Shown: positions 6,073-38,760, counted from the stretch's first letter. The stretch is 64,000 nucleotides of DNA from Aestuariivirgaceae bacterium (GCA_036555325.1 DATBLQ010000038.1:38623-102622); one strand, 5' to 3'. Program-made: numbers and translations. Notes: generated by a model from the sequence alone, not told the origin.

Positions 6073-6148
6073 TGGTGACCCCGGCAGGATTTGAACCCAC
6101 AACCCTCTGGTCCGAAGCCAGATGCTCTATCCGTTGAGCTACGGGGCC
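6073..6148 (-). tRNA. tRNA-Arg, anticodon UCG, CCA encoded
   Basis: The reverse complement GGCCCCGTAGCTCAACGGATAGAGCATCTGGCTTCGGACCAGAGGGTTGTGGGTTCAAATCCTGCCGGGGTCACCA folds by hand as a 76-nt cloverleaf. Stems are 7/4/5/5 bp, the anticodon loop is CTTCGGA, A20 and A73 fit Arg identity, and the T-loop is TTCAAAT. Confidence 0.9.
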
Positions 6149-9055: not shown

Positions 9056-10240
9056 ATGATAATGAGTAGAAGTAAAGCTTCGGCCCGCTCAAGCTTTGAA
9101 ACGATGCTGGCGGCGAGGCGCTTTAGCCGCCGAACCGTACTCAAGGCTGGCGCTGCTGCCGGTGCCATCACGATTGCTGGTCCGGCTTTTGTCAAGAACG
9201 CCCTTTCGGCTTCGGGACAGCTTAACCTTCTGATGTGGTCGGACGAATTTCCCGACCCAGTTGTTCCGAACTTCGAAAAAGCGACGGGCATCAAAGTCAA
9301 CATGACGCCGTTCTCGCAGAACGAAGAGCAGATCAACAAGCTGCAAGCCACAGGGGGCGAAGGGTTCGATCTTTGCCAACCCACGCGCGACCGCGCTCCT
9401 CAGTTCAAGGACCTGGGCGTTCTTGCGCCGTTCGACATGAACAAGGTGAAGAACACCGGAAACCTCATACCGGCAATGCTCGAAGGTTCCACCAGCCTGT
9501 GGACCTGGGAAGACGGGCTCTATCACTTGCCGCATTGCTGGGGGAGTGAGGCAATCTCTTGGCGCACCGACAAATGGCAACCCAAGGATGCCTCGCAGCT
9601 CAGCTACGGAGATTTGTGGAACGAAGAAGTGAAAGGACATGTCCAAGGGCGGCCACACTCGATGCTGCTCGGTATCGGCCTGTTTTGGGACGGGTCGGGC
9701 AAGCTGCCGTCGAACCGTATGCTCGATGCATTCAAGGATCCCGAGACCTTCAAGAAGATCTACGATCAGATTCTGCCGTTTGCCATCGAGCACAAGGCCT
9801 GGATCAAGCAATTCTGGGACTCGGCCGATAACACCAAGTCGGGACTCCTGGAGAATGACGTGTGGATTGGTCAGACTTGGGACGGCCCGGCGCTGTCGTT
9901 GAAGAAGGACGGCAAACCGGTCAACTACCAGGCTCCCAAGGAGGGTGCGATCACATGGCTCGATGGTCTTTCGATGCCGAAGGCTGCCAAGAACGTCGAC
10001 CAGATCTATGAGTTCATCAACTACCTGCACACACCGGAAGCGTCCGCAGCCGTGGCTGAGGGCTCAGGATACAATCCGGTCGTTACGGGTGCTGATGCCC
10101 TTCTGTCAGATGTGGCCAAGAAGAACTTCGCTGAAGCCTATCCTGGCGATTCGTTGAAGAACCTCTGGCATCGTCCGCCTGAGTCTTCCTGGCTTGGCGA
10201 TCTGAAGCTTGAATACGCCGATAAATTCAAGTCGGCATAA
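9056..10240 (+). CDS. ABC transporter periplasmic substrate-binding protein, PotD/PotF family, Tat signal. Putative 2-aminoethylphosphonate binding protein by context.
   Basis: GGAGGA precedes ATG 9056. Twin-arginine leader ARRFSRRTVLKAGAAAGAITIAGPAFV, then a PotD-like body. The upstream 115 codons of track ORF 8711.. cover the promoter and Pho boxes and are rejected. Confidence 0.85.
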   Translation: MIMSRSKASARSSFETMLAARRFSRRTVLKAGAAAGAITIAGPAFVKNALSASGQLNLLMWSDEFPDPVVPNFEKATGIKVNMTPFSQNEEQINKLQATGGEGFDLCQPTRDRAPQFKDLGVLAPFDMNKVKNTGNLIPAMLEGSTSLWTWEDGLYHLPHCWGSEAISWRTDKWQPKDASQLSYGDLWNEEVKGHVQGRPHSMLLGIGLFWDGSGKLPSNRMLDAFKDPETFKKIYDQILPFAIEHKAWIKQFWDSADNTKSGLLENDVWIGQTWDGPALSLKKDGKPVNYQAPKEGAITWLDGLSMPKAAKNVDQIYEFINYLHTPEASAAVAEGSGYNPVVTGADALLSDVAKKNFAEAYPGDSLKNLWHRPPESSWLGDLKLEYADKFKSA

Positions 10241-10260
10241 CCGGAAAGAAGTGAATGCCA

Positions 10261-10291
10261 GTCCGGCCCCGGCTTAGCTCCGGGGCCGGAC
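10261..10291 (+). terminator. Intercistronic perfect 12-bp GC stem-loop after the binding-protein gene (attenuator or mRNA stabiliser)
   Basis: GTCCGGCCCCGG-cttagct-CCGGGGCCGGAC, 21 nt after the stop codon. There is no T-tract, so it is probably partial termination or 3' protection rather than a full terminator. Confidence 0.5.
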
Positions 10292-10355
10292 AATTGCATT
10301 GGCGGCCGCAGGCGTATAGAAATTTCAAGTTGATCCGAGTGAGGTAGAATGGGGT

Positions 10356-11441
10356 ATGAGCGCAGACGTCGAACTTGATCACGTCACCATCAGGTTTGGC
10401 AATTTCACCGCGGTGAAGGGCGCCACGCTAAGAATCAACAACGGCGAGTTTTTCTCGTTTCTGGGACCGTCGGGCTGCGGCAAGACTACGATCCTGCGGA
10501 CCATCTCCGGGTTCCTGGAACCTTCACAAGGAACAGTCCGCATCGGCGGACAGAACATGGCCGGGATCGGCCCGAACAGGCGGCCAACGGCCCTGATTTT
10601 CCAAAATCTTGCACTGTTTCCGCTAATGAGTGTTGCGGAAAACATCACCTACGGGCTGCGCGTGCGCGGTGCGTCAAGAGAGGACCGTAAACGGCGCGGT
10701 GCCGAGTTGTTGAGCCTTATTGCTCTGCCGGATCAGGGCGACAAGCTTGTCAGCGAACTATCGGGCGGGCAGCGGCAGCGGGTTGCAATCGCCAGGGCTC
10801 TGTGCGTCGAACCCAAGGTTCTGCTGCTCGACGAGCCCCTGTCGGCGCTCGACTTGAAGCTTCGCCAGCACATGCGCAACGAGTTGCGCAACATTCAGAA
10901 ACGAGTAGGCATCACCTTCATCTACATCACGCACGATCAGGGTGAAGCGCTTACGATGTCGGACCGTATTGCGGTGATGAATGAGGGCATCATCGAGCAA
11001 ATTGGCGATGGGAAGACGATCTATGACCATCCGGAAACGGCTTTCGTCGCCAGCTTTGTTGGCGAGAACAATCCGTTCCTGGGCAAGGTCGCGCGAGCCA
11101 CTCAAAGCGAGGTTGTCATCGAGACCAAATTCGGACCGTTGCGAGGTCGAAATCCGAAGAATCTGTCGAAGGGTGACCGAGGGATACTGTTCATAAGGCC
11201 CGAGCTGTTGAGACTTGGGAACGGCACCGCCGATTCCACCCTGGAATCAACGGTTCTGAACATAGCGTTCGAAGGAAACGCCAGCCACATATTCCTCAAG
11301 GGGGCGGGCAGCAAGGAGATTACGCTGACGGTCGGCAGGCACGAGGGCGGTGCAATGCCGGAGCAGGGTGGCACTGCCAAAATTTCCTTCGACCCCTCCA
11401 TGGCCCTGGTGCTGCCGGAAGGGAAGATGGCTCGTGAATAA
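10356..11441 (+). CDS. ABC transporter ATP-binding protein (PotA-like, C-terminal TOBE-type domain)
   Basis: Walker A GPSGCGKTT, signature [15 protein letters not shown], Walker B LLLDEPLSALD, H-loop YITHDQ. Confidence 0.9.
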   Translation: MSADVELDHVTIRFGNFTAVKGATLRINNGEFFSFLGPSGCGKTTILRTISGFLEPSQGTVRIGGQNMAGIGPNRRPTALIFQNLALFPLMSVAENITYGLRVRGASREDRKRRGAELLSLIALPDQGDKLVSELSGGQRQRVAIARALCVEPKVLLLDEPLSALDLKLRQHMRNELRNIQKRVGITFIYITHDQGEALTMSDRIAVMNEGIIEQIGDGKTIYDHPETAFVASFVGENNPFLGKVARATQSEVVIETKFGPLRGRNPKNLSKGDRGILFIRPELLRLGNGTADSTLESTVLNIAFEGNASHIFLKGAGSKEITLTVGRHEGGAMPEQGGTAKISFDPSMALVLPEGKMARE

Positions 11442-12435
11442 TCGCCTGATCGTCTTCTTCATCCCGGCGGCGATTGTCATCGCTTACTTTCTGATGGCAA
11501 TGATCGAGCGGCGCGTCCTCGCGGACTCCCGCCCGACGGGGTTCGTTCAGCGCAATGGGGCGGCACTGTCACTGTTCTTTGTCGTTGCCGTTGGTTTCTG
11601 GACATTGTTCATGGTGACGCTGCCCTATCTCTACATGTTCCAGGAATCCTTCCATCCGACGCTGTGGCCGAAGGATCGCGGAGGGCCCAAAGATACGCTC
11701 ACGCTCGAGCATTACCGTTTCTTTCTGTATGGCAGTGATGGACTTGGCAACTTCACACACCTGCGGGCCTTCGTTCTAACCATCTTCATCAGCCTGTGTG
11801 TGACAATCGCCAATTTCATCCTGTGCTATCCGCTTGCCTATTACATGGCGCAATCGGCGACGACGCAAAAGGTGCGGGTTCTTCTACTGGCGCTGATAGT
11901 TCCCTATTGGGTCAACGAGATTCTACGTGCCTTCGCGTTGCGAGTCCTGCTTGCCAGCGGAGGCTTGATCAACACTGCGCTGCTGGGCATGGGCCTCATC
12001 AACGAACCCTTTGATTTTCTCGGCGCCAATATCGGCCTCTACGTGGGTCTTTCCTATGCCTATCTGCTGCTGATGGTGTTCCCTCTGTACAATGCTATCG
12101 AGAGTCTCGATCCCAATCAGATTGAAGCCGCCCGCGATCTAGGGGCCCCCTGGTGGCGCATACACAAGGACATCGTCATACCGCACGCAAAACCCGGCAT
12201 TGCATCGGGCTGTACGATGGTGTTCATGCTCTCGGCGGGCGCGCTCGCCGCGCCGCAATTCTTGGGCGGGCCGAAGACCCTGTGGTTCACTTCCATCGTT
12301 TATGATTTCTTCTTCCAGTCGTTCAATTGGGCGCGGGGATCGGCATATGCCCTGATTCTGCTGGCGGCGTGCATACTCTTCGTGATGCTGATGCTTCGCC
12401 TGTTCAAGGTGAGCCTAGGGGAAACAATCCGATGA
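11434..12435 (+). CDS. ABC transporter permease (PotB-like)
   Basis: Multi-TM protein with an EAA-type loop (IEAARDLGAPWWRIHKDIVIPHAKPG). A GTG at 11434 overlaps the ATPase stop. The track start at 11350 lies inside the ATPase gene. Confidence 0.85.
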   Translation: MNNRLIVFFIPAAIVIAYFLMAMIERRVLADSRPTGFVQRNGAALSLFFVVAVGFWTLFMVTLPYLYMFQESFHPTLWPKDRGGPKDTLTLEHYRFFLYGSDGLGNFTHLRAFVLTIFISLCVTIANFILCYPLAYYMAQSATTQKVRVLLLALIVPYWVNEILRAFALRVLLASGGLINTALLGMGLINEPFDFLGANIGLYVGLSYAYLLLMVFPLYNAIESLDPNQIEAARDLGAPWWRIHKDIVIPHAKPGIASGCTMVFMLSAGALAAPQFLGGPKTLWFTSIVYDFFFQSFNWARGSAYALILLAACILFVMLMLRLFKVSLGETIR

Positions 12436-13325
12436 GCTCGAAGTTCGTGATGCGGGCAATGATCGGATTTTATCTTGTGATCTTCTTCGCCTACCTGTTC
12501 GGCCCACTGTTTTTCATGAGCGTCACCGCATTCAACACGCCGAACTATCCGACCGCCTATCCTTTCGAACAGTTCACCTGGAAGTGGTTCGACGCCCTGT
12601 TCAAGGACCGGGACATGATGGACGGTCTACTCAATTCGGTCATCATCGGATTGGGAGTGGTTGCGCTTTCGGTGCCGATCGGCCTGGCGGCCTCGATTGT
12701 CATGCAACAGATTTATTGGCGCGCACGCGCCCTGTACTACCTCGTCACCGTATCACCGGTGTTGACGCCCGGCGTCATCATTGGCATCTCGACGGTCATC
12801 TTCTGGAAGGATTTCAGTGAGGCGATAGGACTCAAACCCTACCTGTACAAGGGGATCATTCTGGCCATCATCGGTCAATCAAGTTTTATCTGCGCTTATT
12901 GCATGCTGATCATCATGGCGAGACTTCAAAGATTCGACCGTTCACAGGAGGAAGCAGCGCTCGATCTTGGCGCCAGCTATCCGCAGGTATTCTGGCATAT
13001 TCTGGTTCCGTTCCTGAAACCGGCACTTCTTTCGGCGGCAGTCATTGCATTCCTGTCGTCGTTCGAGAACTACAACACCACGACGTTCGCAATACTGGCG
13101 GATAAAACTCTGGTGACTGTGCTGGCGGGGCGCGTTCGGCAGGGCACCACACCGGCGCTGTCGGCTTTGGCGGTCATCATTATTGCCATCTCGCTGGCAG
13201 GGGCGATTGTCTATGAACTCTTGAAACGGCGCGAAGAGCAACGGGCAGCGCGCGCCAAGGAGCAGGCGCGTCTGGCGGAACGCAGTGGAGTAGCCGCGGT
13301 GCCGGCGCTCGCGCCGGCGCGCTGA
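12432..13325 (+). CDS. ABC transporter permease (PotC-like)
   Basis: ATG 12432 overlaps the preceding TGA (ATGA). EAA loop EEAALDLGASYPQVFWHILVPFLKPA and six predicted TM helices. Confidence 0.85.
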   Translation: MSSKFVMRAMIGFYLVIFFAYLFGPLFFMSVTAFNTPNYPTAYPFEQFTWKWFDALFKDRDMMDGLLNSVIIGLGVVALSVPIGLAASIVMQQIYWRARALYYLVTVSPVLTPGVIIGISTVIFWKDFSEAIGLKPYLYKGIILAIIGQSSFICAYCMLIIMARLQRFDRSQEEAALDLGASYPQVFWHILVPFLKPALLSAAVIAFLSSFENYNTTTFAILADKTLVTVLAGRVRQGTTPALSALAVIIIAISLAGAIVYELLKRREEQRAARAKEQARLAERSGVAAVPALAPAR

Positions 13326-13363
13326 ACCGCCGATGCGTCATGGGAGGTGGCGGTTCGGATTGG

Positions 13364-14170
13364 TCAATACCAATTGCCACGTTCGTCCTGAATTGACATT
13401 GCCGCAGGTTTGCGATCGAGGAATGCATCCAGATGCACGATGGTCCGATCGCCTGCCGCAACGACGACCGCATACATGGCCGGTTCGATGCTATAAACGG
13501 TCGGCACCGACCCACCGACCAGCGGCACCTGATGGTTGAGCGATGGCGGAGCAGCAAAAGGGATGCCGCGCCACATTCCGCTGAGCGGCCGATGCGCATG
13601 TCCAAAAAACAAATGCCGGATATTGTGATCCCTTATCGTCTGATGAAACGATTCGGGATCCTCGAGCTTGATCAAGTCCATGAGGCTGTGGCCGATGTCG
13701 AACGGCGGGTGGTGCATGAACAAATAGATCTGTCCCGCGCGTGTAGTCTCAAGCTGGCGACTTAGCCATCTGCGGCGCTTTTCACAATAGATTCCCGCTG
13801 AAGTGTTGCCGCCCTTGAAGGTATCAAGAAAGATGCACTGAATGTCGTCCACTGTGTGGGACGACTGGATAAATCCGTTGTCGTCGCAATATGCTCTACC
13901 GAAACTGCTTCTGAACACCTCCCGATCGTCGTGGTTGCCGATCAGCAGGAATGTCTTGAGCGGAAAGCGAGCGAGCCTCGACTTCAGCCCCTGATAAGAC
14001 GCAGGCTCTGCAATATCCGACAAGTCGCCGGCAATAACGCAAAAGGAAGCGTCGGCGTGATGGCGCTCGATGTCGGCAAGACACTTGTCGAAGCGATCGA
14101 GGGGATCCAAACCCCAAACCGTCGCACCGGGGACTGTCAAGTGAAGGTCGGCAATCAGGATGAACTTCAT
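13364..14170 (-). CDS. Metallophosphoesterase (class III phosphodiesterase, CpdA/GpdQ-like)
   Basis: All calcineurin-like motifs are present: ADLHL (DxH), AGDLSD (GD), GNHDD (GNHD/E), MHHPP, GHAHR (GHxH). Its ATG overlaps the stop of the upstream transporter (ATGA). Confidence 0.85.
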   Translation of the reverse strand: MKFILIADLHLTVPGATVWGLDPLDRFDKCLADIERHHADASFCVIAGDLSDIAEPASYQGLKSRLARFPLKTFLLIGNHDDREVFRSSFGRAYCDDNGFIQSSHTVDDIQCIFLDTFKGGNTSAGIYCEKRRRWLSRQLETTRAGQIYLFMHHPPFDIGHSLMDLIKLEDPESFHQTIRDHNIRHLFFGHAHRPLSGMWRGIPFAAPPSLNHQVPLVGGSVPTVYSIEPAMYAVVVAAGDRTIVHLDAFLDRKPAAMSIQDERGNWY

Positions 14171-15855
14171 ATGGTTTTCCTGTTCGCCGCCTTAAGTCGC
14201 GACTTTCGCAAGAGGCCGGCCGCGTCGACGATCGGATATGCAGCGGAAACGACATGCGAGTTGATCGTATGGAAATCGCGGATCAAGTCGACAAACAGGG
14301 CGCCGCGCCTCAACGACCGTCCTTTCGGACCGGGGGCGCGGAATTGGTCGCGGATGATTTTGTTCTCGATTGTCCGAAACAATCCTTTCTGCTCGATCAA
14401 CCGCCTGGCGCCGGCAATGTCACCGGAACCAAACACCCCCGATGCGAGCTTGAGGCTTTCGCACACTAAGTCGGCGAGTTTGTCCAGAGCAGCGCTTTCG
14501 GCGGGCGAAAAGCTTATGTTCTCCTTGATCTTCGACTTCACTCGGTCGGCGAGGCTCAAATGGATGATGTCGCCGGCATGCTCCAGGTTGCTCACATAAA
14601 GCATTGTTTCGAGTGCCCGCTTGCTATCTTCCGCCGAGAGTTCATTTCGAGTCAGCTCCGCCACATAGGCCTGAATGTCGCTTTGATAGCCATTGAGCCG
14701 CTCGTCGAGCAGTCGAATGCTTTTGAGACCATCAACCTTGTTGGCCTTGAGTGCTTCTACCGCGGTGCGGAACATGCGATCGAGCAATTCGGCCATGCGA
14801 ACAGTCTCCAGGGAGGCGTTCGATAGCGCAACGCTTGGGGAGTCAAATGCGCCACGATCCAGATAGCGTGGCTTGATAAGCGGATCTTCGGCGGCCTTCT
14901 TGTCAGGCAAAAGCTTTTCTGTGGCTTTTACGATCAAGCCGAGAAATGGGAGGCAAGCGACCGCCAGGCAGATATTGAAGGCAAGATGGGCGACGAGAAC
15001 CCGATGCACCGGATCGCCGGACATCGTATCGATCGAGGCTGAGATTTGCGGCAGAAAGGGGAGCAGCACTCCGGCGCCAATGGCGCGGCAAATCAGATTT
15101 GCCAGCGGCATGCGTCGAGCCGCGGGCTCAAACTCCATGGTGGACATCATTGCGGGCAGTCCACCGCCAAAATTGACACCGAGCACGAACGCCATGGCAC
15201 CGGCAACCTCCAGACTGCCGTTGGCCACGAACGAGGCAATCAAGAGGATGATTGCGAGGCTGGAATAGCTGAGCCAGGTGACAAGTGCGCCGATCAGGAA
15301 GGCCAGCAAGTGCTCTGATCCAAGGGTGGATAATACATTGTGGAACAGAGTTGCCTCGCGCAGCGGCGAAGTGGCGGAGGTAACAAGCTTGAGGGCCAAC
15401 AACATGAGTCCGAGGCCCATGAGGATGCGGCCGATATTGCGGAGCTTGAAGTCGCTTGAAGCGCTGAACAGCACATAGCCGGCAAACAGCAGCAGGGGCG
15501 ATAGCCAAAGTGACAAGATGGCGCCACCGGTCGCGAAGGCAGCCGATACTATGGCCGAACCAACGTCGGAACCGAGCAGCACCGCCAGGCCCCGCGCCGC
15601 CTCCAGAGTGCCTGCGGCTGCGAGTCCGGTGATGATTAGCGCCGTCGCGGTGCCGCTTTGTAACAGAACCGTTGCACCAATACCTGCAAGGAGCGAGGTT
15701 AGCCGGTTGGTCAGGTGAGTCTCGATAAACCGCTTCAGACGTTCTCCCCACGCCCGCAAGATGCCGGTGCGCACCATGCGTACGCCCCACAAAAGCAGTG
15801 TTACGCTGCCTAGCAAATTAACGATGACAAGTGTGCCGGGGCTTAGGAGATCCAT
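14167..15855 (-). CDS. Na/Pi-cotransporter family protein with C-terminal PhoU-like repeats (YjbB/NptA type)
   Basis: The N-terminal half is polytopic (LLGSVTLLLWGVRMVRTGILRAWG...). The C-terminal half is soluble and helical with PhoU-like repeats (NLEHAGDIIH). AGGAAA lies 5 nt before ATG 15855. The track start at 15900 would overlap phnY. Confidence 0.85.
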   Translation of the reverse strand: MDLLSPGTLVIVNLLGSVTLLLWGVRMVRTGILRAWGERLKRFIETHLTNRLTSLLAGIGATVLLQSGTATALIITGLAAAGTLEAARGLAVLLGSDVGSAIVSAAFATGGAILSLWLSPLLLFAGYVLFSASSDFKLRNIGRILMGLGLMLLALKLVTSATSPLREATLFHNVLSTLGSEHLLAFLIGALVTWLSYSSLAIILLIASFVANGSLEVAGAMAFVLGVNFGGGLPAMMSTMEFEPAARRMPLANLICRAIGAGVLLPFLPQISASIDTMSGDPVHRVLVAHLAFNICLAVACLPFLGLIVKATEKLLPDKKAAEDPLIKPRYLDRGAFDSPSVALSNASLETVRMAELLDRMFRTAVEALKANKVDGLKSIRLLDERLNGYQSDIQAYVAELTRNELSAEDSKRALETMLYVSNLEHAGDIIHLSLADRVKSKIKENISFSPAESAALDKLADLVCESLKLASGVFGSGDIAGARRLIEQKGLFRTIENKIIRDQFRAPGPKGRSLRRGALFVDLIRDFHTINSHVVSAAYPIVDAAGLLRKSRLKAANRKTI

Positions 15856-15887
15856 CCGAGTTTCCTGGTCAGACCTGCTTAGATCAT

Positions 15888-17348
15888 CTAAGCCGGCCAT
15901 GGCAATGAATAGGTCTTCACGTTGGTGAAGAACTTCATCGCTTCCAGTACTCCTTCTTTTACACCATTGCCTGAATCCTTAATGCCGCCGAAGGGCGACA
16001 TCTCGGTGCGATACCCCGGCACTTCCCATATGTTGACGCTGCCCACGTTGAGGCAGTCGACATAGCGTGTAATTCGATCCAGGCGGTTGGTGCATACTCC
16101 CGATGAAAGTCCGAAAGAGGTCGAATTGGAGATTCTTATGACCTCGTCGTCGTCGCCCGCCACCCGTATCATCGGTATGACCGGACCAAAAGTCTCCTGA
16201 AGGACGAGTTCACAATCATAAGGTACGTGATCGAGGGTGATTGGGGGGAGAATCGCTCCCTTGCGTCCAGGATGGTAGAGGATTTTGGCGTCATGCCTGG
16301 CTGCATCCTCCACCCGCCGCTCGATGGCAATGGCCGCCTTTTCGTCCACGACGGTGCCGAGATCGGTGTGCGGATCCATTGGATCGCCGAATTTTATGTC
16401 CTTGGCTTTTTGCAGTACGTGGCGGGCGAACTGGTCGGCAACTTTCTGCATGACGAGGATGCGTTTCACCGCAGTGCAACGCTGTCCGGAATTCTTCGTT
16501 GCGCCTTTCACCGCAAGGTCGGCGGCCCTTTCCAAATCCTCCGGAGAAAGATCATCGCACACTATCAGCGGATCATTGCCGCCCAGCTCGAGAGCGGCCC
16601 GCTTATACCCTGCCTTGTTGGCGATGATTTTCCCAACGCTTACGCCACCTGTGAAGGTGATAACCTCGACATGGGGATTGGTGACCATCTCGTCGCCGAT
16701 GTCACTCGGCCAACCGGTGACCACCTGAAACATCTCAGGCGGCAGTCCCGCTTCGTAGAGGATATCGGCCAGCGCCAAGGCCGTGAGGGGAGTGGCTTCG
16801 GCGGGCTTGCATACCACGCAATTGTTGGTGGCGATGGCAGGAGCCACCTTGTGAGCCACCATGTTGAGCGGATGGTTAAAGGGTGTGATGGCTGAAATCG
16901 TCTGCACCGGATGGCGTTTTGTATAGATCTTCCGCGCCTTTCCGTGAGGCGTCACATCACAGGAAAAAATCTGACCATCGTCGAGGATTGCAAGTTGACC
17001 TGCAAGAGTGAACACGTCATGGGCGCGGCCGCACTCGTAGAGCGAGTCCTTTTTCGATATGCCAAGTTCAAGCGTGATGAGATCGGATAACGCCTCCTTG
17101 CGTTGTTCGATGAACTCAGCCGTCTTGAACAGGATGCGCTGGCGCTCGTAACGTGAAAGTTTCGATCTAAATCCGGCGGCGATGGCGAAGGCACTGCGCA
17201 CATGCTCCGGCCTCCCGGCGGGAACGGTGCCGACCATTTCATTGGTATATGGATAGAACACGGGAATGACTGCTTCGGCAGTTACCTTCTTGCCGCCAAC
17301 CCGCATGGATTCCGTAAGAACGGTGCGCTTAGGCTCGATCCGGCTCAT
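15888..17348 (-). CDS. phnY: Aldehyde dehydrogenase, probable phosphonoacetaldehyde dehydrogenase
   Basis: ALDH superfamily motifs (ELGGNDP, catalytic [17 protein letters not shown]-like QETFGPV). It lies 9 nt downstream of phnA in the phnW-phnA-phnY order. Confidence 0.8.
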
Positions 17349-17357
17349 GCGTCCTGC

Positions 17358-18626
17358 CTATTCCGCGGCTGCGGCGAATTCCGCAATGTGGTTGCAGCCA
17401 ATAGCAAATGCATCGAAATTGCGAAGATTTTTGTGCAAACCGACAGTCTTACGGTTGGTGATAATCGGAATTTCCTGTTCGCTCAGTCCGCCGTGCGATC
17501 GAAGCGGCTCTGTCAGAGCCGACAGATTGTGGTTGGTGCGCCGCGATCCAATAACCTTGGTTGCCGAGGCGCCACCAGATATTACGACAAGATCTCCGAT
17601 ACGATCTTCGGGCAAATCGAACCGCCGGCTGGCCGACTTGCGGTCCAGCACCACATCAATTCCTTGCATGTGCCTCACCGCTGCCGCCACTTCATCGAGC
17701 TGCACGCCCTTGAGATAAACGGTGGCAAACGACCCGAGTGCCCCGTGATGCAATACATAAGGATCGGTGATGGGTAAGATGACCTGGGTGGTGTCACTGC
17801 CGAACAGCTTGTCCAACTCGTCCTGCAGATAAAGGACATCCGGTTCCCCATTGGCAAGATGCTTGTCCTTCATGCCGTGATCGGCGGTGATGACGACTAC
17901 GGCGCCCGCCTCGTCGAGCTGGCATAGATAACGATCAAGCATCAGGTAGAATTCATTGGCGCCCGCAGAACCCGGCGGAAATTTGTGTTGAATGTAGTCC
18001 GTGGTGGAAAGATACATGAGATCGGGGCGCTTCAGCCTGAGCAATTTCACTCCGGCAGCGAGCACGAACTCGGAAAGCCCGGCGGAATAAACTTCCGGCA
18101 CCGGCATGCCGGCAAATTCGCACACATCGGCGATGCCGTTGGCGGTCATGGTTGCTTTGTTCGCCTGCTCGGAGGAAAAGCAAATGGCCGTCCCATCGAA
18201 CACAAGCCCTTTTCCAAGCAGCAGCCGCAATTTGTCTTTGGCGGTGATCACCGCCACCGTGGCGCCGGCTTGCTGAAATTCCGCAAATATCGTCGGCGCG
18301 CGCAGCCACTTCGGATCGTTCATCATGACTTCATGGCCGGTCTGCGGATCGATGAAATAGTTCCCGCAAATACCGTGCCATGATGGCGGCCGTCCGGTGA
18401 CGATCGACAGATTGTTGGGGTTGGTGAAACTCGGCATTGCTGACGTGCCGCGCAGATTTTCACCACTAGCGATGATATTCCGCAAATTGGGCATGAGCCC
18501 GGCGTCCATGGCCAATTCCATGTAAGCGGGCTCGCTGCCATCGCAGCACACAACGACAAGAGGCTGAGCGGGCCAGCGGTAATCACGGCCGTTCACGGTT
18601 ACGGTTCTTGGTTTCTGTCTGGCCAT
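17358..18626 (-). CDS. phnA: Phosphonoacetate hydrolase (alkaline-phosphatase superfamily)
   Basis: Motifs I recall from characterised PhnA enzymes: VVVCCDGSEPAY, PSFTNPNNLSIVTGRPPSWHGICGNYF, MYLSTTDYIQHK, ITADHGM, LPITDPYVLHHGALGSFATVYL, RFDLPEDRIGDLVV, PLRSHGGLSEQEIP. Confidence 0.9.
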   Translation of the reverse strand: MARQKPRTVTVNGRDYRWPAQPLVVVCCDGSEPAYMELAMDAGLMPNLRNIIASGENLRGTSAMPSFTNPNNLSIVTGRPPSWHGICGNYFIDPQTGHEVMMNDPKWLRAPTIFAEFQQAGATVAVITAKDKLRLLLGKGLVFDGTAICFSSEQANKATMTANGIADVCEFAGMPVPEVYSAGLSEFVLAAGVKLLRLKRPDLMYLSTTDYIQHKFPPGSAGANEFYLMLDRYLCQLDEAGAVVVITADHGMKDKHLANGEPDVLYLQDELDKLFGSDTTQVILPITDPYVLHHGALGSFATVYLKGVQLDEVAAAVRHMQGIDVVLDRKSASRRFDLPEDRIGDLVVISGGASATKVIGSRRTNHNLSALTEPLRSHGGLSEQEIPIITNRKTVGLHKNLRNFDAFAIGCNHIAEFAAAAE

Positions 18627-18629
18627 TCG

Positions 18630-19751
18630 CTATTCGTCAGAGACAGCCGGCGTCATGTCTCTAACGCCCATCTCACGCAAACAATCACGCACGGCATCGA
18701 CCAGCGCTTGCATGACTTTCGGATCAACCTGGCCGATATTGCCTATCCTGAAGCTCGGTCGCTGAGTGAGTTTTCCGGGATAAATTACGAAACCGCGCGA
18801 TTTCAGCCCATCGTAGAAGCGCTGAAAGTCGAACTTGCGATCGCGGGGGGTAAGGAACGTTTGGATGATCGGACCCGCATCTTCAGGCGCAAGAAGGGTA
18901 TGAAAGCCGAGACGCCGCATACCGGCAATGAGGGTGTCGCGATTTCTCACATAGCGGGCCAGGCGACCGGCAAGCCCGCCCTCCTTATCGTGCTCTTTCA
19001 GTGCTTGGTAAAAGGCAACCAAGGTATGGGTCGGCGGCGTGTAACGAAACTGGCCGGTCTTCTCCATATGTTGCCATTGATCGAACAGATCGAGAGACAA
19101 TGAATGGCATCGATCCTTCGATGCCTTCAGCAAGTCCCACCGGCTCAATACATAAGCGAAACCCGGCACACCCTCGAGACACTTATTGGCCGAGGAAACC
19201 ACCACGTCGATTCCAAGCGCGGCTGTTTCAATCGGTATGGCACCGAATGAGCTCATGGCATCGAGGATCAGAGTGCGGTCGTGTTTCTTGACAGCGGTAG
19301 CTATGTCCCGCATCGGATTGACCAGACCGGAGGTCGTTTCACAGTGAACAAGAAAAACCATCGATATGCCTGGATCATCCTCCAGCGCGTGTTCAATATC
19401 TGCTAGCTTTGGCCTTTCGTCGTCGGCATATCGCAGCACGACGTGCGGTCGGTTCAACCGCTCCATGATCTTGATGGCACGCTCTCCATAGGCGCCATTG
19501 CTGATCATCAGCAGCTTGCGTCTGCCGATCGGGGCAAAACCTCCCAGAGCTGCTTCAATTGCGAAGGTTCCGGAACCTTGCATGAGCACACAGGTGTAAT
19601 TCTCATCGCAACCAGCCAACTTCAAAAGGCGACGGCGGATATCGGATACGATAAATTTCAGTTCCTGGTCCCAGGAGCCCCAATCAGCCAACATGGCGAA
19701 CTTGACCCCGCGGGAGGTGGTGAGCGGCCCAGGAGTAAGAAGATAGGGCAT
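18630..19751 (-). CDS. phnW: 2-aminoethylphosphonate--pyruvate transaminase
   Basis: N-terminus MPYLLTPGPLTTSRGVKFAMLADWGSWD and a class-V aminotransferase body (SSANKCLEGVPG PLP-lysine region). An alternative upstream ATG at 19811 adds 20 aa that are probably not conserved. Confidence 0.9.
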   Translation of the reverse strand: MPYLLTPGPLTTSRGVKFAMLADWGSWDQELKFIVSDIRRRLLKLAGCDENYTCVLMQGSGTFAIEAALGGFAPIGRRKLLMISNGAYGERAIKIMERLNRPHVVLRYADDERPKLADIEHALEDDPGISMVFLVHCETTSGLVNPMRDIATAVKKHDRTLILDAMSSFGAIPIETAALGIDVVVSSANKCLEGVPGFAYVLSRWDLLKASKDRCHSLSLDLFDQWQHMEKTGQFRYTPPTHTLVAFYQALKEHDKEGGLAGRLARYVRNRDTLIAGMRRLGFHTLLAPEDAGPIIQTFLTPRDRKFDFQRFYDGLKSRGFVIYPGKLTQRPSFRIGNIGQVDPKVMQALVDAVRDCLREMGVRDMTPAVSDE

Positions 19752-19852
19752 ATCTTCCTGGCCTTCGGGGCCGGTAACTTTGCGCTTAGGTGGCCGAACG
19801 ACTACAACCATTGGTTTTTCCGATTCGAAACTCCATATGCGGTTTCCGGACT

Positions 19853-19890
19853 TTATAAGTCAAATCGGTTCTGATTATGTATTATATAAG
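19853..19890. promoter_or_regulatory. AT-rich candidate LysR-binding region between phnW and the LysR gene
   Basis: TTATAAGTCAAATCGGTTCTGATTATGTATTATATAAG contains an imperfect dyad (ATAAGTCA...TGATTAT) and repeated TATAAG, in the only AT-rich stretch of the divergent spacer. Confidence 0.3.
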
Positions 19891-19904
19891 CTAGGCAGAT
19901 ATAT

Positions 19905-20762
19905 ATGAGTTACGCACAGCTGAAAGCATTCCATGCCGTTGCCGCGAGCGGCGGATTTTCCAAAGCGGCCCACAAACTCAATGTGACTCAACCGGCTCTA
20001 TCCGACCATGTGCGCAAGCTGGAATCAGCCTATGGGGTGGAACTTTTCTCACGTACGAGGCGAAAGGTGGATCTTACCGATCTCGGTCGGCAGCTTTTTG
20101 CTCTCACGGAGCGCCAATTCGAGGCTGAGGCGCAGGCCATCGAACTCCTAAGTCGCGCGCAAGGTCTCAGGCAGGGGCTCATCTCGATTGGCGCGGATGC
20201 GGCTGTCCATGCCTTGCCGCTTATCAAGAGATTCAACGAGCGCTATCCGCGCGTCGAACTCAAGCTGATTACGGGCAATACGGTCCGCCTTATCAACCAG
20301 CTAGAGAAACTGGAGATCGATTTCGCCGTGGTGGCGGAGGTGCCATCTTCGGAGATCTTCTTTGCCTGCAAGGTCCGAGAAGACCCACTTGTGTGCATAC
20401 TGGCGCAAAATCACCCGCTGTCGCGAAGGAAAAAACTTCTGTTTGATGACCTGTTGCAAACCGCACTGGTCCTGCGCGAAAGAGGTTCGGTCACGCGCGC
20501 CCTTTTTGAAGGCGAGGCAAGCAGACGCGGAGCACGGCCCAGACAGGTAATTGAAATTGAGGGCAGGGAAGCCGCAAACGAGGCGGTAGCCCAAGGACTC
20601 GGCGCCGGCATCGTATCGCGCGGAGAGCTGCCGCATGACGAAAGACTGCGCGCAATCGCCGTGGCGGATTGGCGCGAAACAATGCAGGAATGGCTCGTAT
20701 GCCTTAAGGCGCGCGCCGATCTTCATATCATGCGTGCATTCTTGCAGTTGCTGGCATCTTGA
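19905..20762 (+). CDS. LysR-family transcriptional regulator, divergent from phnW (PhnR-like by position)
   Basis: wHTH MSYAQLKAFHAVAASGGFSKAAHKLNVTQPALSDHVRKLE plus a LysR effector domain. Confidence 0.9.
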   Translation: MSYAQLKAFHAVAASGGFSKAAHKLNVTQPALSDHVRKLESAYGVELFSRTRRKVDLTDLGRQLFALTERQFEAEAQAIELLSRAQGLRQGLISIGADAAVHALPLIKRFNERYPRVELKLITGNTVRLINQLEKLEIDFAVVAEVPSSEIFFACKVREDPLVCILAQNHPLSRRKKLLFDDLLQTALVLRERGSVTRALFEGEASRRGARPRQVIEIEGREAANEAVAQGLGAGIVSRGELPHDERLRAIAVADWRETMQEWLVCLKARADLHIMRAFLQLLAS

Positions 20763-27186: not shown

Positions 27187-28662
27187 ATGTCCACCGACCT
27201 AGAGAAATTCACCAGCACGCCCGGCCGCGACGATCTCATCAAACAGGTGCGTAAGAAGATCGATTCGCTCGGCATCGAATATCTGTACCTGCAATTCATT
27301 TCAGTAACCGGCCGGATCATGGGCAAGGGCATTCCCGCCGAACACTGGGAGAATGTCGCCAACGGTGGATTCCAGCTCGTGTACGGCGCGACCATGAATC
27401 TCTTTCTCAATCGCCACGGAGAGTACATGGGCTATGGCCCGGAAGCGGCGGAACTGGTGGGTATCCCTGAGCCCGAGACCTTTATGCAGCTTCCCTGGGA
27501 CAAGCGCGTGGCTCGCATGTGGTGCACGCTTTTCCGCAACCGCGAGGAGCGTGAAAATCCTGGAGGATATCTTACCGCCGACTGTCGCGGCAATCTTCGC
27601 CGCATTCACGACGAATTCGAACGCACCCACGGGCTTCGCATGCGCCACGGCACGGAGCCGGAAATGATGTGGCTGAGGAAAGGAGACGATGGCAAGGCAA
27701 AGGGCGGCTATTCCAATCCCTACTGCTATCACATAGATCAGTTCGAAAGCCTGAGACCAGTCTACATGCGCGTCATCGAGTATGGGCGCAAGATGGGGCT
27801 GGACATGATCCAAGGAGATCATGAGGATTCACCCGGGCAGCTAGAATTGAATTTCAACTTTGACGATGCGCTGAAGACAGCCGACCGCCTTTCAACCTAC
27901 CGGCAGATCTGCGCGCAAGTGGCACGCGAGTTCAATATCATCGCGTGTTTCATGTGCAAGCCCTTCATGGGAGTTTCGGCGAACGGCTGCCACCATAACA
28001 TCTCGCTGTGGGCGGAAGGGAAGGATGAGTTCAAGCCCCTGGGAAACGATCCCAAGAATCTTCCGGGCCTTGAGCACAACTACATGTATCTGCGCGGAGG
28101 AAAGAATACGTTTCTGCCGGAAGGCAAGGACGTGCAGATGCCGGGGAAGATCGGCCTCTACACCATCGGCGGCATCGTCAAGCATCTCGCTGGATTGACC
28201 GCCATCGGCTGCTCCACGGTGAATTCCTACCGTCGGCTATGGGATACCGGTTTCTGGGCTCCGGTGTTTGCCGACTGGGGATACCAAAATCGGACGACGG
28301 GCTTGCGCTTGTCGGCGCCGGGCAGATTTGAGTATCGCGCGGTCGATTCGATGGTGAATCCGCACCTCATGGCTGCGGGGATCCTGAAAGCGGCGGATGA
28401 CGGCATCAAGAACAAGATCGATCCGGGGAAGCCCGAGGAACGCAACATCTACGTTGCCATGGAAGCAGGCAAGCAAGTGAAGAAGCTGCCCATGACGCTG
28501 GGTGATGCGCTCGAGGCCCTTAAAAAGGACGAGGTCATCAAATCGGCGCTGCCGGGGGAAATGTACCGGCTGTATGATGAATATAAGCGTGATGAATGGG
28601 AACGGTTCCTTCACACCGCGACCGAGTGGGACATCAAGATGTACATGGATTGCTTGCCGTAA
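27187..28662 (+). CDS. Glutamine-synthetase-family protein (gamma-glutamyl-amide synthetase-like)
   Basis: GS catalytic-domain motifs CHHNISLW, NSYRRLWDTGFWAP and NRTTGLRLSAPGRFEYRAVDSMVNPHL. 491 aa. Confidence 0.85.
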   Translation: MSTDLEKFTSTPGRDDLIKQVRKKIDSLGIEYLYLQFISVTGRIMGKGIPAEHWENVANGGFQLVYGATMNLFLNRHGEYMGYGPEAAELVGIPEPETFMQLPWDKRVARMWCTLFRNREERENPGGYLTADCRGNLRRIHDEFERTHGLRMRHGTEPEMMWLRKGDDGKAKGGYSNPYCYHIDQFESLRPVYMRVIEYGRKMGLDMIQGDHEDSPGQLELNFNFDDALKTADRLSTYRQICAQVAREFNIIACFMCKPFMGVSANGCHHNISLWAEGKDEFKPLGNDPKNLPGLEHNYMYLRGGKNTFLPEGKDVQMPGKIGLYTIGGIVKHLAGLTAIGCSTVNSYRRLWDTGFWAPVFADWGYQNRTTGLRLSAPGRFEYRAVDSMVNPHLMAAGILKAADDGIKNKIDPGKPEERNIYVAMEAGKQVKKLPMTLGDALEALKKDEVIKSALPGEMYRLYDEYKRDEWERFLHTATEWDIKMYMDCLP

Positions 28663-28680
28663 GCAAAAAGGAGATACGCA

Positions 28681-29616
28681 ATGTGTGGCATTGCAGGGCT
28701 GATTCACCGCGACGGCATCGGTAACATAGGCGCCGAAATGACCGCGATGCTCCAGTCGCTCAAACATCGAGGTCCCGATTCGACCGGTTATGCGATTTAC
28801 GGAACGCCGGGACGCAACGAGTTCGTGATGCGGTTCAAGGTCGCTGAACAGGAGGACACGAAGAAGGGCTTTGAAATTCACGAAGAGATCAAGCGTCGCC
28901 GGACAACTGTCGAAGATCGGCTGAAGCAGCTTGGGGTGACCGTCATCGATCGAGACGAGGTGACCGAATATGCCTTTCGATATCGCATTCAATACGACGG
29001 CGAGATGAAGAAACTTGCCGATTATGTGGAGGATGTAAAAGGCACGGAAATCTTGTCGATGGGCAACGCGCTGGAGCTCATCAAAGATCTCGGAGATGCG
29101 AAGTTAGTTTCATCGCAATACAAACTTGACGGATTCAAGGGAACGCACGGCATCGGCCATACGCGGATGGCAACCGAATCGGATGTCGACATTCGCTCGG
29201 CCCACCCCTATTGGGCCTACCCCTATAACGACATTGCAGTGGTGCACAACGGCCAGCTGACCAACTACTGGCAGATGAGACGCGAGTTCGAGCGCCGCGG
29301 ACACCGCTTCATGTCGAACTGCGACAGCGAACTTCTGGCTGTCTATACCGCGTATAATCTCGAGCACGGCGCCACGCTGGAGGAGTCGCTCAAACAGTCG
29401 GTGCGGGAGATCGACGGAGTGTTCACATACCTAATCGCCACCAAGGATGCCCTTGGCATGGCAAAGGACGCCATGGCCGCCAAACCGATGGTGCTCTACG
29501 AGAGCGACAACCTCGTTGCGCTTGCTTCCGAAGAAGTGGCCATACGCGCGGTCATCCCGCACGAAATCGAAACCTGGGACCCTTACGATGAAGAGGTTCG
29601 CGTATGGCGGGCGTAA
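28681..29616 (+). CDS. Class-II glutamine amidotransferase (GlxB / MgsA-like)
   Basis: N-terminal nucleophile MCGIAGL plus HTRMATES and an Ntn-type body. Confidence 0.9.
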   Translation: MCGIAGLIHRDGIGNIGAEMTAMLQSLKHRGPDSTGYAIYGTPGRNEFVMRFKVAEQEDTKKGFEIHEEIKRRRTTVEDRLKQLGVTVIDRDEVTEYAFRYRIQYDGEMKKLADYVEDVKGTEILSMGNALELIKDLGDAKLVSSQYKLDGFKGTHGIGHTRMATESDVDIRSAHPYWAYPYNDIAVVHNGQLTNYWQMRREFERRGHRFMSNCDSELLAVYTAYNLEHGATLEESLKQSVREIDGVFTYLIATKDALGMAKDAMAAKPMVLYESDNLVALASEEVAIRAVIPHEIETWDPYDEEVRVWRA

Positions 29617-30461: not shown

Positions 30462-30503
30462 CCCAGACCGCTTGCGCAGCGAATGAGCAAAAAGGGGTAA
30501 TCG

Positions 30504-36230: not shown

Positions 36231-36262
36231 ATGGCCGGACCTCGATCCGGCCATCTTCTTTT
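36231..36262 (+). terminator. Rho-independent terminator
   Basis: ATGGCCGGA-cctcga-TCCGGCCAT followed by CTTCTTTT. A second perfect 9-bp hairpin, GTCATGCGC...GCGCATGAC, lies at 36186-36215. Confidence 0.7.
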
Positions 36263-38631: not shown

Positions 38632-38760
38632 TAGTGGCTCCCCAATAGGGCAACATAAGCTGGATTGGCGCAACGTAAGGGAGGGTTACCAACAAATCAA
38701 GGAAATGGTCCCCTTTGGAATCTCGTGCTATTTGACTGCTCCTTAGGGACTTGCGAGCAG

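What the first reader, a model, noticed from the sequence alone, without database searches (positions are those of the whole stretch)
13364..14170. Metallophosphoesterase translationally coupled to the phosphonate operon: candidate phosphonate-monoester hydrolase
Seen: a complete calcineurin-type motif set (DxH, GD, GNHD, HH, GHxH) and an ATGA overlap with the upstream gene.

Established: the related GpdQ glycerophosphodiesterase hydrolyses phosphodiesters and phosphonate monoesters. Natural AEP is largely esterified in phosphonolipids and phosphonoglycans.

Inference: this enzyme could release free AEP from deacylated phosphonolipid head groups (glycerol or ceramide esters of AEP) and so feed PhnW. 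I am not aware that this step has been assigned in the phnWAY route.
Basis: partly seen in the sequence, partly recalled or inferred. Interest (0 to 1): 0.65.

Follow-up and report, generated by a model that had tools for sequence, protein, structure and literature searches.

The report
Phosphodiesterase gene appended to aminoethylphosphonate operon
A GpdQ/SpdA-type metal-dependent phosphodiesterase is the last, translationally coupled gene of an operon that breaks down 2-aminoethylphosphonate (AEP), and relatives sit in three other kinds of phosphonate operon, so it is a credible but untested candidate for freeing phosphonates from their natural esters.

Summary
Window 13364-14170 (minus strand) encodes a 268-aa calcineurin-like metallophosphoesterase. 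All class III phosphodiesterase motifs are present, and its ATG overlaps the stop of the upstream gene (ATGA). That upstream gene is a Na/Pi-cotransporter/PhoU gene, not a phosphonate enzyme. It lies inside a LysR-controlled phnW-phnA-phnY operon.

The nearest solved structure is the glycerophosphodiesterase GpdQ (30% identity, TM 0.83, all seven metal ligands kept). The nearest characterised relative by sequence is SpdA of S. meliloti, a 2',3'-cyclic-nucleotide phosphodiesterase (39% identity). The protein fails the NCBIfam cut-offs for both SpdA and CpdA.

Among 80 related loci plus annotated plasmids, homologues adjoin bona fide phosphonate genes in four distinct arrangements:
- phnWAY(-NaPi)-MPE
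- phnW-phnX-MPE
- phnA-Fe-ADH-phnY-ABC-MPE
- an Ugp-like ABC-MPE-kinase unit flanked by phnY, phnA and phnW

Elsewhere the gene ends ABC-importer operons, often followed by a HAD phosphatase gene.

This fits a cytoplasmic esterase for imported esters whose phosphorus product goes to the neighbouring enzymes. No sequence feature shows the substrate, and the archetypal S. meliloti operon lacks the gene.

The parts
13364..14170 (-). Class III (subclass A) binuclear metallophosphoesterase, GpdQ/SpdA-like, 268 aa, cytoplasmic. Candidate phosphonate-monoester / phosphodiester hydrolase.
   Evidence: Pfam PF00149 E = 3e-13. NCBIfam best hit SpdA at 231 bits, below the 400 cut-off; CpdA 68 bits, below 225. 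Best PDB sequence match GpdQ, E = 9e-19. AF2 pLDDT 83; Foldseek GpdQ TM 0.83/0.81. Metal ligands conserved.
14167..15900 (-). Na/Pi-cotransporter family + PhoU-domain membrane protein. Its stop overlaps the esterase start (ATGA). The likelier start is the ATG at 15855 (562 aa).
   Evidence: PF02690 E = 2e-37 and PF01895 E = 2e-16. NF037997 Na_Pi_symport 128 bits, above the 50 cut-off. AGGA lies 9 nt before the ATG at 15855, and the L089 orthologue is 561 aa. The same family is the first gene of the S. meliloti AEP operon.
15888..17348 (-). phnY, phosphonoacetaldehyde dehydrogenase
   Evidence: TIGR03250, 767 bits, above the 636 cut-off
17358..18626 (-). phnA, phosphonoacetate hydrolase
   Evidence: TIGR02335, 513 bits, above the 408 cut-off
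18630..19811 (-). phnW, 2-aminoethylphosphonate--pyruvate transaminase
   Evidence: NF010006, 508 bits, above the 296 cut-off; TIGR02326, 479 bits, above 401
19905..20762 (+). Divergent LysR-family regulator of the AEP-catabolism-associated type
   Evidence: TIGR03339 phn_lysR, 311 bits, just under the 341 cut-off. The divergent position is conserved in related loci.
9056..13325 (+). Convergent PotD/PotF-type ABC importer: binding protein 9056-10240, ATPase 10356-11441, permeases about 11434-12435 and 12432-13325. Candidate importer of AEP or an amine-bearing ester.
   Evidence: Pfam and NCBIfam hits. The binding protein's best PDB matches are PotD/PotF, E = 3e-29. The synteny is conserved in L001, L002, L011, L015, L016, L018, L019, L023 and L089. 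Start coordinates.

Best explanation
The gene encodes a cytoplasmic, binuclear-metal phosphodiesterase of the GpdQ/SpdA/Rv0805 group (class III, subclass A). It has been recruited as an accessory 'front-end' enzyme of a LysR-controlled AEP catabolic operon.

Proposed mechanism (inferred): small water-soluble esters of AEP are imported. Candidates are the glycerol ester left after deacylation of phosphonolipids, or sugar esters from phosphonoglycans. The convergent PotD-type ABC system is the likely importer here. The esterase uses its metal-bridged hydroxide to cleave the single P-O-C ester bond and releases free AEP and the alcohol. PhnW, PhnY and PhnA then convert AEP to acetate and phosphate. 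The co-translated Na/Pi-cotransporter/PhoU protein handles the phosphate, most simply by exporting it.

Shown: the fold, the complete catalytic site, operon membership with translational coupling, and recurrent linkage of the family to phosphonate genes and to ABC importers.

Inferred: the substrate class, the direction of transport, and the identity of the alcohol.
For: 1. Catalytic competence. All motifs and all seven GpdQ ligand equivalents are invariant. The second-shell residues His81, His217 and Ser127 of GpdQ are also kept, as H80, H213 and S124. The AF2 model superposes on GpdQ over its full length, TM 0.83.

2. Operon membership. The gene overlaps its upstream neighbour by 4 nt with an internal Shine-Dalgarno sequence. 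The overlap is conserved in 10 of 13 loci. Gaps along phnW-phnA-phnY-NaPi-MPE are at most 32 nt.

3. Recurrent linkage to bona fide phosphonate genes in four arrangements:
(a) phnW-phnA-phnY-(NaPi)-MPE in 18 of 80 genome loci, plus L089 and L091.
(b) LysR | phnW-phnX-MPE in L031, where PhnX scores 339 bits on TIGR01422, above the 220 cut-off.
(c) phnA - phosphonate-associated Fe-ADH (TIGR03405, 526 bits, above 424) - phnY - Opp-like ABC - MPE - alkaline-phosphatase-family protein in Variovorax, Acidovorax and a MAG.
(d) L061, where phnY and phnA on one side and phnW on the other (595 bits, above 296) flank an Ugp-like ABC-MPE-FGGY kinase unit.
These arrangements fall in at least three separate branches of a rough NJ tree.

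4. Family logic. In other members the gene is the last gene of an ABC importer operon (Ugp-like, PotD-like or Opp-like), often followed by a HAD phosphatase gene. So the diesterase acts on an imported ester, and neighbouring enzymes deal with the phosphorus-containing product. In the phosphonate loci, PhnW/X/A/Y take that role.

5. Chemistry. GpdQ-type diesterases accept phosphonate monoesters (general statement and use of GpdQ in PMC9371700; Ghanem et al. 2007 from memory). AEP occurs mostly esterified in lipids and glycans (PMC3266647; PMC8316502).
Against: - There is no biochemical evidence for any member of this clade.
- The closest characterised homologue, SpdA (39% identity), is a 2',3'-cNMP phosphodiesterase (PMC4222275). 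That paper stresses that class III specificity cannot be read from sequence.
- The archetypal S. meliloti operon works without this gene. Of 120 plasmid records carrying phnA, the only case seen with the esterase beside phn genes was Variovorax. That count comes from the organism lists of the two searches and the regions I opened, not from a full cross-check.
- Most phnWAY-linked cases form one clade and may reflect a single recruitment that was inherited vertically.
- Close relatives nested inside that clade (L007, L010, L012, L013) have no phn gene within 10 kb.
- No residues distinguish phosphonate-linked members from the others.
- The binding protein of the adjacent ABC system is only generically PotD-like.
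Confidence: 0.45

Rival explanations
1. It is a general cytoplasmic phosphodiesterase for ordinary phosphodiesters such as glycerophosphoethanolamine, glycerophosphocholine or dialkyl phosphates. It sits beside phosphonate genes only because all belong to a phosphorus/nitrogen scavenging neighbourhood, and it has no special role for phosphonate esters.
For: Many family members lie in Ugp-like ABC operons with a HAD phosphatase gene and no phn genes. Others follow a dimethylglycine-dehydrogenase-like gene or a class III aminotransferase gene. In Variovorax the same operon carries PhoD and an alkaline-phosphatase-family gene. GpdQ's natural substrates are glycerophosphodiesters (from memory). 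Clade members L007, L010, L012 and L013 lack phn genes nearby.
Against: Four independent operon arrangements with bona fide phn genes are hard to get by chance. The window operon has a LysR, substrate-type regulator and tight translational coupling rather than loose clustering. It contains no monoesterase that could release phosphate from an ordinary diester's product.
Confidence: 0.25
2. It is a cyclic-nucleotide phosphodiesterase, either 2',3'-cNMP like SpdA and Rv0805 or 3',5'-cAMP like CpdA, with a housekeeping or regulatory role unrelated to phosphonate supply.
For: The best NCBIfam model is SpdA (231 bits, full-length alignment). The protein is 39% identical to the SpdA gene beside cyaD1 and a Crp/Fnr-family regulator gene. 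SpdA hydrolyses 2',3'-cAMP and 2',3'-cGMP (PMC4222275). JGI names homologues CpdA or Icc.
Against: It scores below the equivalog cut-offs of both SpdA (231 against 400) and CpdA (68 against 225). SpdA branches at the far edge of the family tree. A cyclic-nucleotide role does not explain the placement at the end of ABC importer operons or inside four kinds of phosphonate operon. No adenylate cyclase or Crp-family gene was seen in the annotated part of the window.
Confidence: 0.12
3. It hydrolyses a phosphoanhydride-type phosphonate conjugate such as CMP-AEP (the nucleotide-activated form), in the way that Mn-dependent ADP-ribose/CDP-alcohol diphosphatases of the same superfamily act, and recycles AEP from activated intermediates.
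For: CMP-activated AEP is the widespread biosynthetic donor (abstract of PMC6697681). Metallophosphoesterases with CDP-alcohol hydrolase activity exist (from memory). This would also link the enzyme to phosphonate operons.
Against: CMP-AEP is an intracellular biosynthetic intermediate and is unlikely to be imported. No phosphonate biosynthesis gene (ppm, ppd, pntC) was seen among the annotated genes of the window. The closest structural relatives are diesterases.
Confidence: 0.05

Closest known systems
GpdQ, glycerophosphodiesterase of Enterobacter aerogenes (PDB 2DXL, 2ZO9, 3D03)
   Same: Best sequence and structure match among solved structures (E = 9e-19; TM 0.83/0.81 over about 270 columns). 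All seven metal ligands are kept, as are the equivalents of His81, His217 and Ser127. The C-terminal cap region aligns. Both are cytoplasmic and about 270 aa. Family members, like gpdQ (from memory), sit with Ugp-type uptake genes.
   Different: Only 30% identity. Tyr19 is Trp and Asn53 is Asp. A clade-specific C-terminal tail PAxM....ERGNWY is present. Here the gene lies in an AEP operon, not an Ugp operon.
SpdA (SMc02179) of Sinorhizobium meliloti, a 2',3'-cyclic-nucleotide phosphodiesterase
   Same: Closest characterised homologue by sequence: 39% identity, same length, NCBIfam NF050112 alignment over 2-250. Same five class III motifs (PMC4222275).
   Different: The score is below the equivalog cut-off (231 against 400). 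spdA lies beside cyaD1 and a Crp/Fnr-family regulator gene with no transporter or phosphonate genes. It branches at the base of the family tree.
Rv0805 / CpdA / Icc, class III subclass A cyclic-nucleotide phosphodiesterases
   Same: Same motif set and nearly the same spacing: 37, 28, 71 and 36 residues here, against the published 37-38, 28-32, 68-70 and 35-37 (PMC4320098). Rv0805 is the second-best structural match.
   Different: CpdA model scores 68 bits against a 225 cut-off. Sequence alignment to Rv0805 stops at residue 208 and does not cover the C-terminal cap.
Phosphonate monoester hydrolases of the alkaline-phosphatase superfamily (R. leguminosarum PMH, Burkholderia caryophylli PehA)
   Same: Same proposed reaction class, hydrolysis of a phosphonate monoester. 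PehA was found on glyceryl glyphosate (from memory). Genes annotated 'pmh' have been noted beside phnWX and phnWAY (PMC13608971).
   Different: Unrelated fold and mechanism: formylglycine nucleophile and sulfatase-like fold, against a binuclear calcineurin-like fold. The window protein has no alkaline-phosphatase or sulfatase family hit.
Ancillary 'Pbf' enzymes of AEP clusters (PbfA, PbfB-D, PbfF)
   Same: Same logic: non-core genes that recur in phnWX and phnWAY clusters and widen the range of compounds fed to the core pathway (PMC8154272, PMC12366243, PMC10590968).
   Different: The Pbf enzymes modify free AEP analogues (hydroxy- or N-methyl-AEP). None is an esterase, and no metallophosphoesterase is mentioned in those papers.

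Membership tests
Calcineurin-like metallophosphoesterase superfamily (PF00149) | Pfam model hit above the gathering score | tested here: met
   51.1 bits against 21.5, E = 3e-13, covering residues 1-195
Class III phosphodiesterase, subclass A | Signature DxH-(37-38)-GD-(28-32)-GNH[ED]-(68-70)-H-(35-37)-GHxH (PMC4320098) | tested here: met
   D8xH10-37-G48D49-28-G78NHD81-71-H153-36-G190HAH193. One spacer is a single residue longer than the published range.
GpdQ-like glycerophosphodiesterase | Seven metal ligands (D8, H10, D50, N80, H156, H195, H197) and second-shell H81 and H217 | tested here: met
   Aligned to D8, H10, D49, N79, H153, H191, H193, H80 and H213. All are invariant in A1. Residue roles are taken from memory of the GpdQ literature.
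GpdQ-like glycerophosphodiesterase | Same fold including the C-terminal cap domain | tested here: met
   Foldseek top hits 3d03, 2dxl and 2zo9, TM 0.82-0.83, about 270 aligned columns. phmmer alignment runs to residue 242 of 268. The model has low confidence at 215-227 and 254-268.
GpdQ-like glycerophosphodiesterase | Hydrolysis of glycerophosphodiesters and phosphonate monoesters; hexameric assembly | not testable with these tools
   Needs enzyme assays and biophysics
SpdA equivalog (NF050112, 2',3'-cNMP phosphodiesterase) | Score at or above the curated 400-bit cut-off | tested here: not met
   231.1 bits; 39% identity to the S. meliloti gene
CpdA equivalog (NF008359, 3',5'-cAMP phosphodiesterase) | Score at or above the curated 225-bit cut-off | tested here: not met
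   68.1 bits
Alkaline-phosphatase-superfamily phosphonate monoester hydrolase (PMH/PehA) | Sulfatase / alkaline-phosphatase fold | tested here: not met
   No such Pfam or NCBIfam hit; the fold is calcineurin-like
Accessory enzyme of hydrolytic AEP catabolic clusters | Recurrent, same-strand placement in clusters with bona fide phnW, phnX, phnA or phnY in unrelated lineages and arrangements | tested here: met
   Four arrangements. The Pandoraea case was excluded because its 'phnW' scores only 91 bits against a 361 cut-off.
Accessory enzyme of hydrolytic AEP catabolic clusters | Its product is a substrate of the core pathway | not testable with these tools
   Needs a coupled assay with PhnW, or growth tests

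The most novel reading that the evidence does not exclude
This subfamily of GpdQ/SpdA-like metallophosphoesterases is the missing 'step zero' of hydrolytic phosphonate catabolism. It would be a cytoplasmic phosphonate-monoester hydrolase that releases AEP, or hydroxyethylphosphonate in the Comamonadaceae operons, from imported glycerol or sugar esters. It would have been recruited independently into phnWAY, phnWX and phnA/Fe-ADH/phnY operons, so that bacteria can use the esterified phosphonate pool directly.
Probability: 0.4. Interest if true: 0.65.

Novelty: new variant of a known kind. Interest (0 to 1): 0.5.

Why it matters
Most natural AEP is bound as an ester in phosphonolipids and phosphonoglycans. 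The described catabolic routes (PhnWX, PhnWAY, and the Pbf side enzymes) all start from free phosphonates. No enzyme that releases them is assigned in the literature I could search.

If this esterase does that job, it would explain how bacteria reach the esterified pool. It would add a marker gene for phosphonate-ester use in metagenomes. It would also give the large, poorly understood GpdQ/SpdA-like group a physiological substrate class.

The test is simple: one soluble 30-kDa enzyme and a few synthetic substrates. If instead it is a general diesterase or a cyclic-nucleotide phosphodiesterase, the finding is an ordinary accessory gene.

Tried and rejected
- Near-identical DNA in the plasmid collection: only weak phnA and phnY matches, so no annotated close relative of the window exists there.
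- Specificity-determining residues shared by phosphonate-linked members of different clades but absent from Ugp-linked members and SpdA: the five candidate columns are also common in 'other' contexts, so they track clades, not function.
- Pandoraea 'MPE-phnW' pairs, first counted as a fifth arrangement: the neighbour is only a PhnW-like class-V aminotransferase (91 bits against a 361 cut-off). Dropped.
- The 'C7' aminotransferase that seemed to accompany the esterase in 11 loci is two unrelated groups (81-100% identity against about 30%), merged by loose clustering. The Aestuariivirga copy is convergent and sits with deacetylase, GNAT and dehydrogenase genes. It was not used as evidence.
- Promoter and terminator scans over 13200-20100: no more sites than in shuffled sequence, so nothing can be said about transcript ends.
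- The binding protein of the adjacent ABC system against solved structures: only generic PotD/PotF similarity and no AEP-specific relative.
- Literature searches for phnW plus metallophosphoesterase, and for phosphonolipid plus glycerophosphodiester, found no paper assigning this step.
- My first greedy gene caller replaced the esterase with antisense ORFs in many loci. It was redone with a GC3-based score, and the esterase coordinates were taken from tblastn.

Full report
**The feature.** The ORF at 13364-14170 lies on the minus strand and encodes 268 aa. It matches Pfam Metallophos (E = 3e-13). It carries D8xH10, G48D49, G78NHD81, H153H154 and G190HAH193, all invariant among 21 homologues of 54-70% identity. 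The motif spacing is that of class III phosphodiesterase subclass A (Rv0805, CpdA, PdeA), with one spacer a single residue longer than published (PMC4320098). Motif I begins at residue 8 and the model starts with a beta strand. There is therefore no signal peptide, and the protein is cytoplasmic.

**The operon.** On the minus strand the order is:
- phnW, 19811-18630
- phnA, 18626-17358
- phnY, 17348-15888
- a Na/Pi-cotransporter + PhoU gene, 15900 or more likely 15855, to 14167
- the esterase, 14170-13364

PhnW, PhnA and PhnY pass their NCBIfam equivalog cut-offs. A divergent LysR gene of the AEP-associated type lies at 19905-20762 (311 bits against a 341 cut-off). The esterase ATG overlaps the transporter's TGA (ATGA), with an AGGA 7 nt upstream. 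The same overlap occurs in 10 of 13 related loci. A PotD/PotF-type ABC importer converges on the esterase at 9056-13325.

**Relatives of known function.**
- Among solved structures GpdQ is best by sequence (E = 9e-19, aligned 6-242), followed by Rv0805.
- An AlphaFold model (pLDDT 83, pTM 0.85) superposes best on GpdQ (TM 0.83/0.81, full length), then on Rv0805.
- The seven GpdQ metal ligands and the equivalents of His81, His217 and Ser127 are kept. Tyr19 becomes Trp and Asn53 becomes Asp. Identity is 30%.
- By sequence profile the closest named family is SpdA of S. meliloti (231 bits, cut-off 400). CpdA scores 68 against 225.
- The S. meliloti gene beside cyaD1 and a Crp/Fnr-family regulator gene is 39% identical. 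Purified SpdA hydrolyses 2',3'-cNMPs and bis-pNPP, and its authors stress that class III specificity cannot be read from sequence (PMC4222275).

The protein is therefore a member of the GpdQ/SpdA/Rv0805 group, but not an equivalog of any characterised enzyme.

**Distribution.** The window's own clade is mostly uncultured Hyphomicrobiales (Aestuariivirgaceae and Nordella-like MAGs). The best database protein is 99% identical, and the rest are 71% or less. In a library clustered at 50% identity, 220 clusters match at E <= 1e-30 and 1568 at E <= 1e-10.

**Genomic context of relatives.** I fetched 80 genome loci. I mapped the window's proteins onto them, clustered the neighbouring ORFs and annotated representatives. 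Four arrangements contain bona fide phosphonate genes.
1. phnW-phnA-phnY-(NaPi)-MPE occurs in 18 loci, plus L089 and L091 from metagenomes. L089 reproduces the window's synteny, including the CN-hydrolase, LysR and CoA-transferase genes.
2. L031 has LysR | phnW-phnX-MPE with gaps of about 30 nt. Its PhnX scores 339 bits on TIGR01422, above the 220 cut-off.
3. Variovorax paradoxus VAI-C, Acidovorax bellezanensis and a MAG carry one long same-strand run: phnA - phosphonate-associated Fe-ADH (TIGR03405) - phnY - Opp-like ABC - MPE - alkaline-phosphatase-family protein - porin - PhoD - MgtC - acs. This looks like a route for hydroxyethylphosphonate or its esters.
4. In L061 an Ugp-like ABC-MPE-FGGY kinase unit lies between phnY/phnA and phnW.

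In a rough NJ tree without bootstrap support, arrangement 1 is one clade, 2 lies in its sister group, 3 is a Burkholderiales clade, and 4 sits among Ugp-linked members.

A fifth apparent case, Pandoraea MPE-'phnW', was discarded. The neighbour is only a PhnW-like class-V aminotransferase.

**Contexts without phosphonate genes.**
- Many members are the last gene of a LysR-controlled Ugp-like ABC operon, often followed by a HAD phosphatase gene. Examples are plasmids of Tistrella, Agrobacterium pusense and Phaeobacter, and an IS-flanked module on a Delftia IncP plasmid.
- In Mesorhizobium album the gene ends a PotD-like ABC operon.
- Some follow a dimethylglycine-dehydrogenase-like gene or a PF04199 'cyclase' gene.

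The common pattern is that an importer brings in an ester, the cytoplasmic diesterase opens it, and neighbouring enzymes handle the products. The neighbour that handles the phosphorus product is a HAD phosphatase in some loci and PhnW/X/A/Y in others. This parallel is the strongest argument that, in phosphonate operons, the product is a free phosphonate and the substrate a phosphonate monoester.

**Limits.**
- No member of the clade has been assayed.
- The S. meliloti AEP operon (LysR | NaPi-phnW-phnA-phnY, then an AEP ABC system) has the NaPi gene but no esterase.
- Of 120 plasmid records with phnA, only Variovorax was seen to pair it with this esterase. This rests on the organism lists of the two searches and the regions I opened, not a full cross-check.
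- The gene is therefore an occasional accessory.
- Four clade members lack phn genes within 10 kb (L007, L010, L012, L013).
- No convergent specificity residues exist.
- The C-terminal tail PAxM....ERGNWY is invariant only in the phnWAY-linked clade, and it is modelled with low confidence.
- The 80 loci are the closest relatives rather than an unbiased sample, and my gene calling was crude.

**Literature.**
- AEP is normally esterified in lipids and glycans (PMC3266647; PMC8316502).
- Systematic mining of AEP clusters has yielded PbfA, PbfB-D and PbfF, all of which act on free AEP analogues. No esterase is mentioned.
- No held paper links a metallophosphoesterase with phnW.
- A 2026 paper notes, from annotation only, 'pmh' genes next to phnWX and phnWAY in Roseibium, Phycocomes and Marivita, and cites the alkaline-phosphatase-superfamily enzyme for them (PMC13608971).
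- Phosphate is exported when AEP is used as a nitrogen source (PMC8316502). This gives the NaPi/PhoU gene a plausible job.

**Verdict.** Membership of a phosphonate operon and recurrent, independent linkage make a role in phosphonate catabolism likely. Ester hydrolysis is the natural role for this fold. The substrate remains inferred, and SpdA-like or generic diesterase activities remain open. My estimates are:
- phosphonate-ester hydrolase feeding PhnW: about 0.45
- generic diesterase: about 0.25
- cyclic-nucleotide phosphodiesterase: about 0.12
- CMP-AEP-type hydrolase: about 0.05

It is a new variant of a known kind: a known enzyme family in a known operon type, with a possibly new physiological step. 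It is moderately interesting because the hypothesis is specific and cheap to test.

Noticed in passing
window 14167-15900 (-); L093 4984-6654: A Na/Pi-cotransporter + PhoU-domain gene lies inside the phnWAY operon. The same family is the first gene of the S. meliloti AEP operon. Phosphate is exported during growth on AEP as a nitrogen source (PMC8316502), so it may be the phosphate exporter, or a phosphonate importer. The likelier start is the ATG at 15855, not 15900.
   Followed up: partly
window 9056-13325 (+): A PotD/PotF-type ABC importer converges on the esterase, with only 38 bp between the two stop codons. The synteny is conserved in at least 9 related loci. In Mesorhizobium album (L010) a 38%-identical version lies directly upstream of the esterase in one operon. 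Its ligand is unknown.
   Followed up: partly
L021, L026, L029, L030, L036, around 9287-9985: A PF04199 'putative cyclase' gene sits 15-23 nt upstream of esterase homologues on the same strand (spacing measured in L029, L030 and L036). This is the Pfam family I take the 'cyclase-PTE' phosphotriesterase of PMC9371700 to belong to (assignment not checked). It may be a triesterase-diesterase pair.
   Followed up: no
L083 (Variovorax paradoxus VAI-C, CP063167.1 2435396-2452691): A long same-strand run: phnA - phosphonate-associated Fe-ADH (TIGR03405) - phnY - Opp-like ABC - esterase - alkaline-phosphatase-family protein - porin - PhoD - MgtC - acetate-CoA ligase. No phnW is nearby. It looks like a route for hydroxyethylphosphonate or its esters, ending in acetyl-CoA.
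   Followed up: partly
window residues 253-268 of the esterase (nt 13364-13414): The C-terminal tail PAxM....ERGNWY is invariant only in the phnWAY-linked clade and is absent from GpdQ, SpdA and the Ugp-linked members. It is modelled with pLDDT below 50. It could be an oligomer contact or an active-site lid.
   Followed up: partly
window 27187-31976 and 36262-38673: A methylated-amine catabolism cluster. It has a glutamine-synthetase-like gene, then three genes resembling N-methylglutamate synthase subunits (GATase, GXGXG, FMN), and a TMAO demethylase (NF053776, 1244 bits, above the 1100 cut-off). The region is rich in routes for nitrogen-bearing head-group compounds.
   Followed up: partly
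L092 (Delftia acidovorans IncP plasmid NZ_CP065667.1, 28916-34564): An IS-flanked cargo module on a conjugative IncP plasmid: HAD hydrolase - Ugp-like ABC - esterase homologue (44% identity). It shows that the importer-diesterase-phosphatase unit is mobile. It recalls the Delftia PdeA diethyl-phosphate diesterase (from memory; identity not checked).
   Followed up: no
L043, L054, L055: A dimethylglycine/sarcosine-dehydrogenase-like gene (DAO + FAO_M + GCV_T) lies directly upstream of esterase homologues, with a 4-nt overlap in L054. This hints at a choline-type head group, such as glycerophosphocholine, for those members.
   Followed up: no
window 6073-6148 (-): A single tRNA-Arg (anticodon TCG) is the only tRNA in the window. 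No sign of an island boundary was examined.
   Followed up: no
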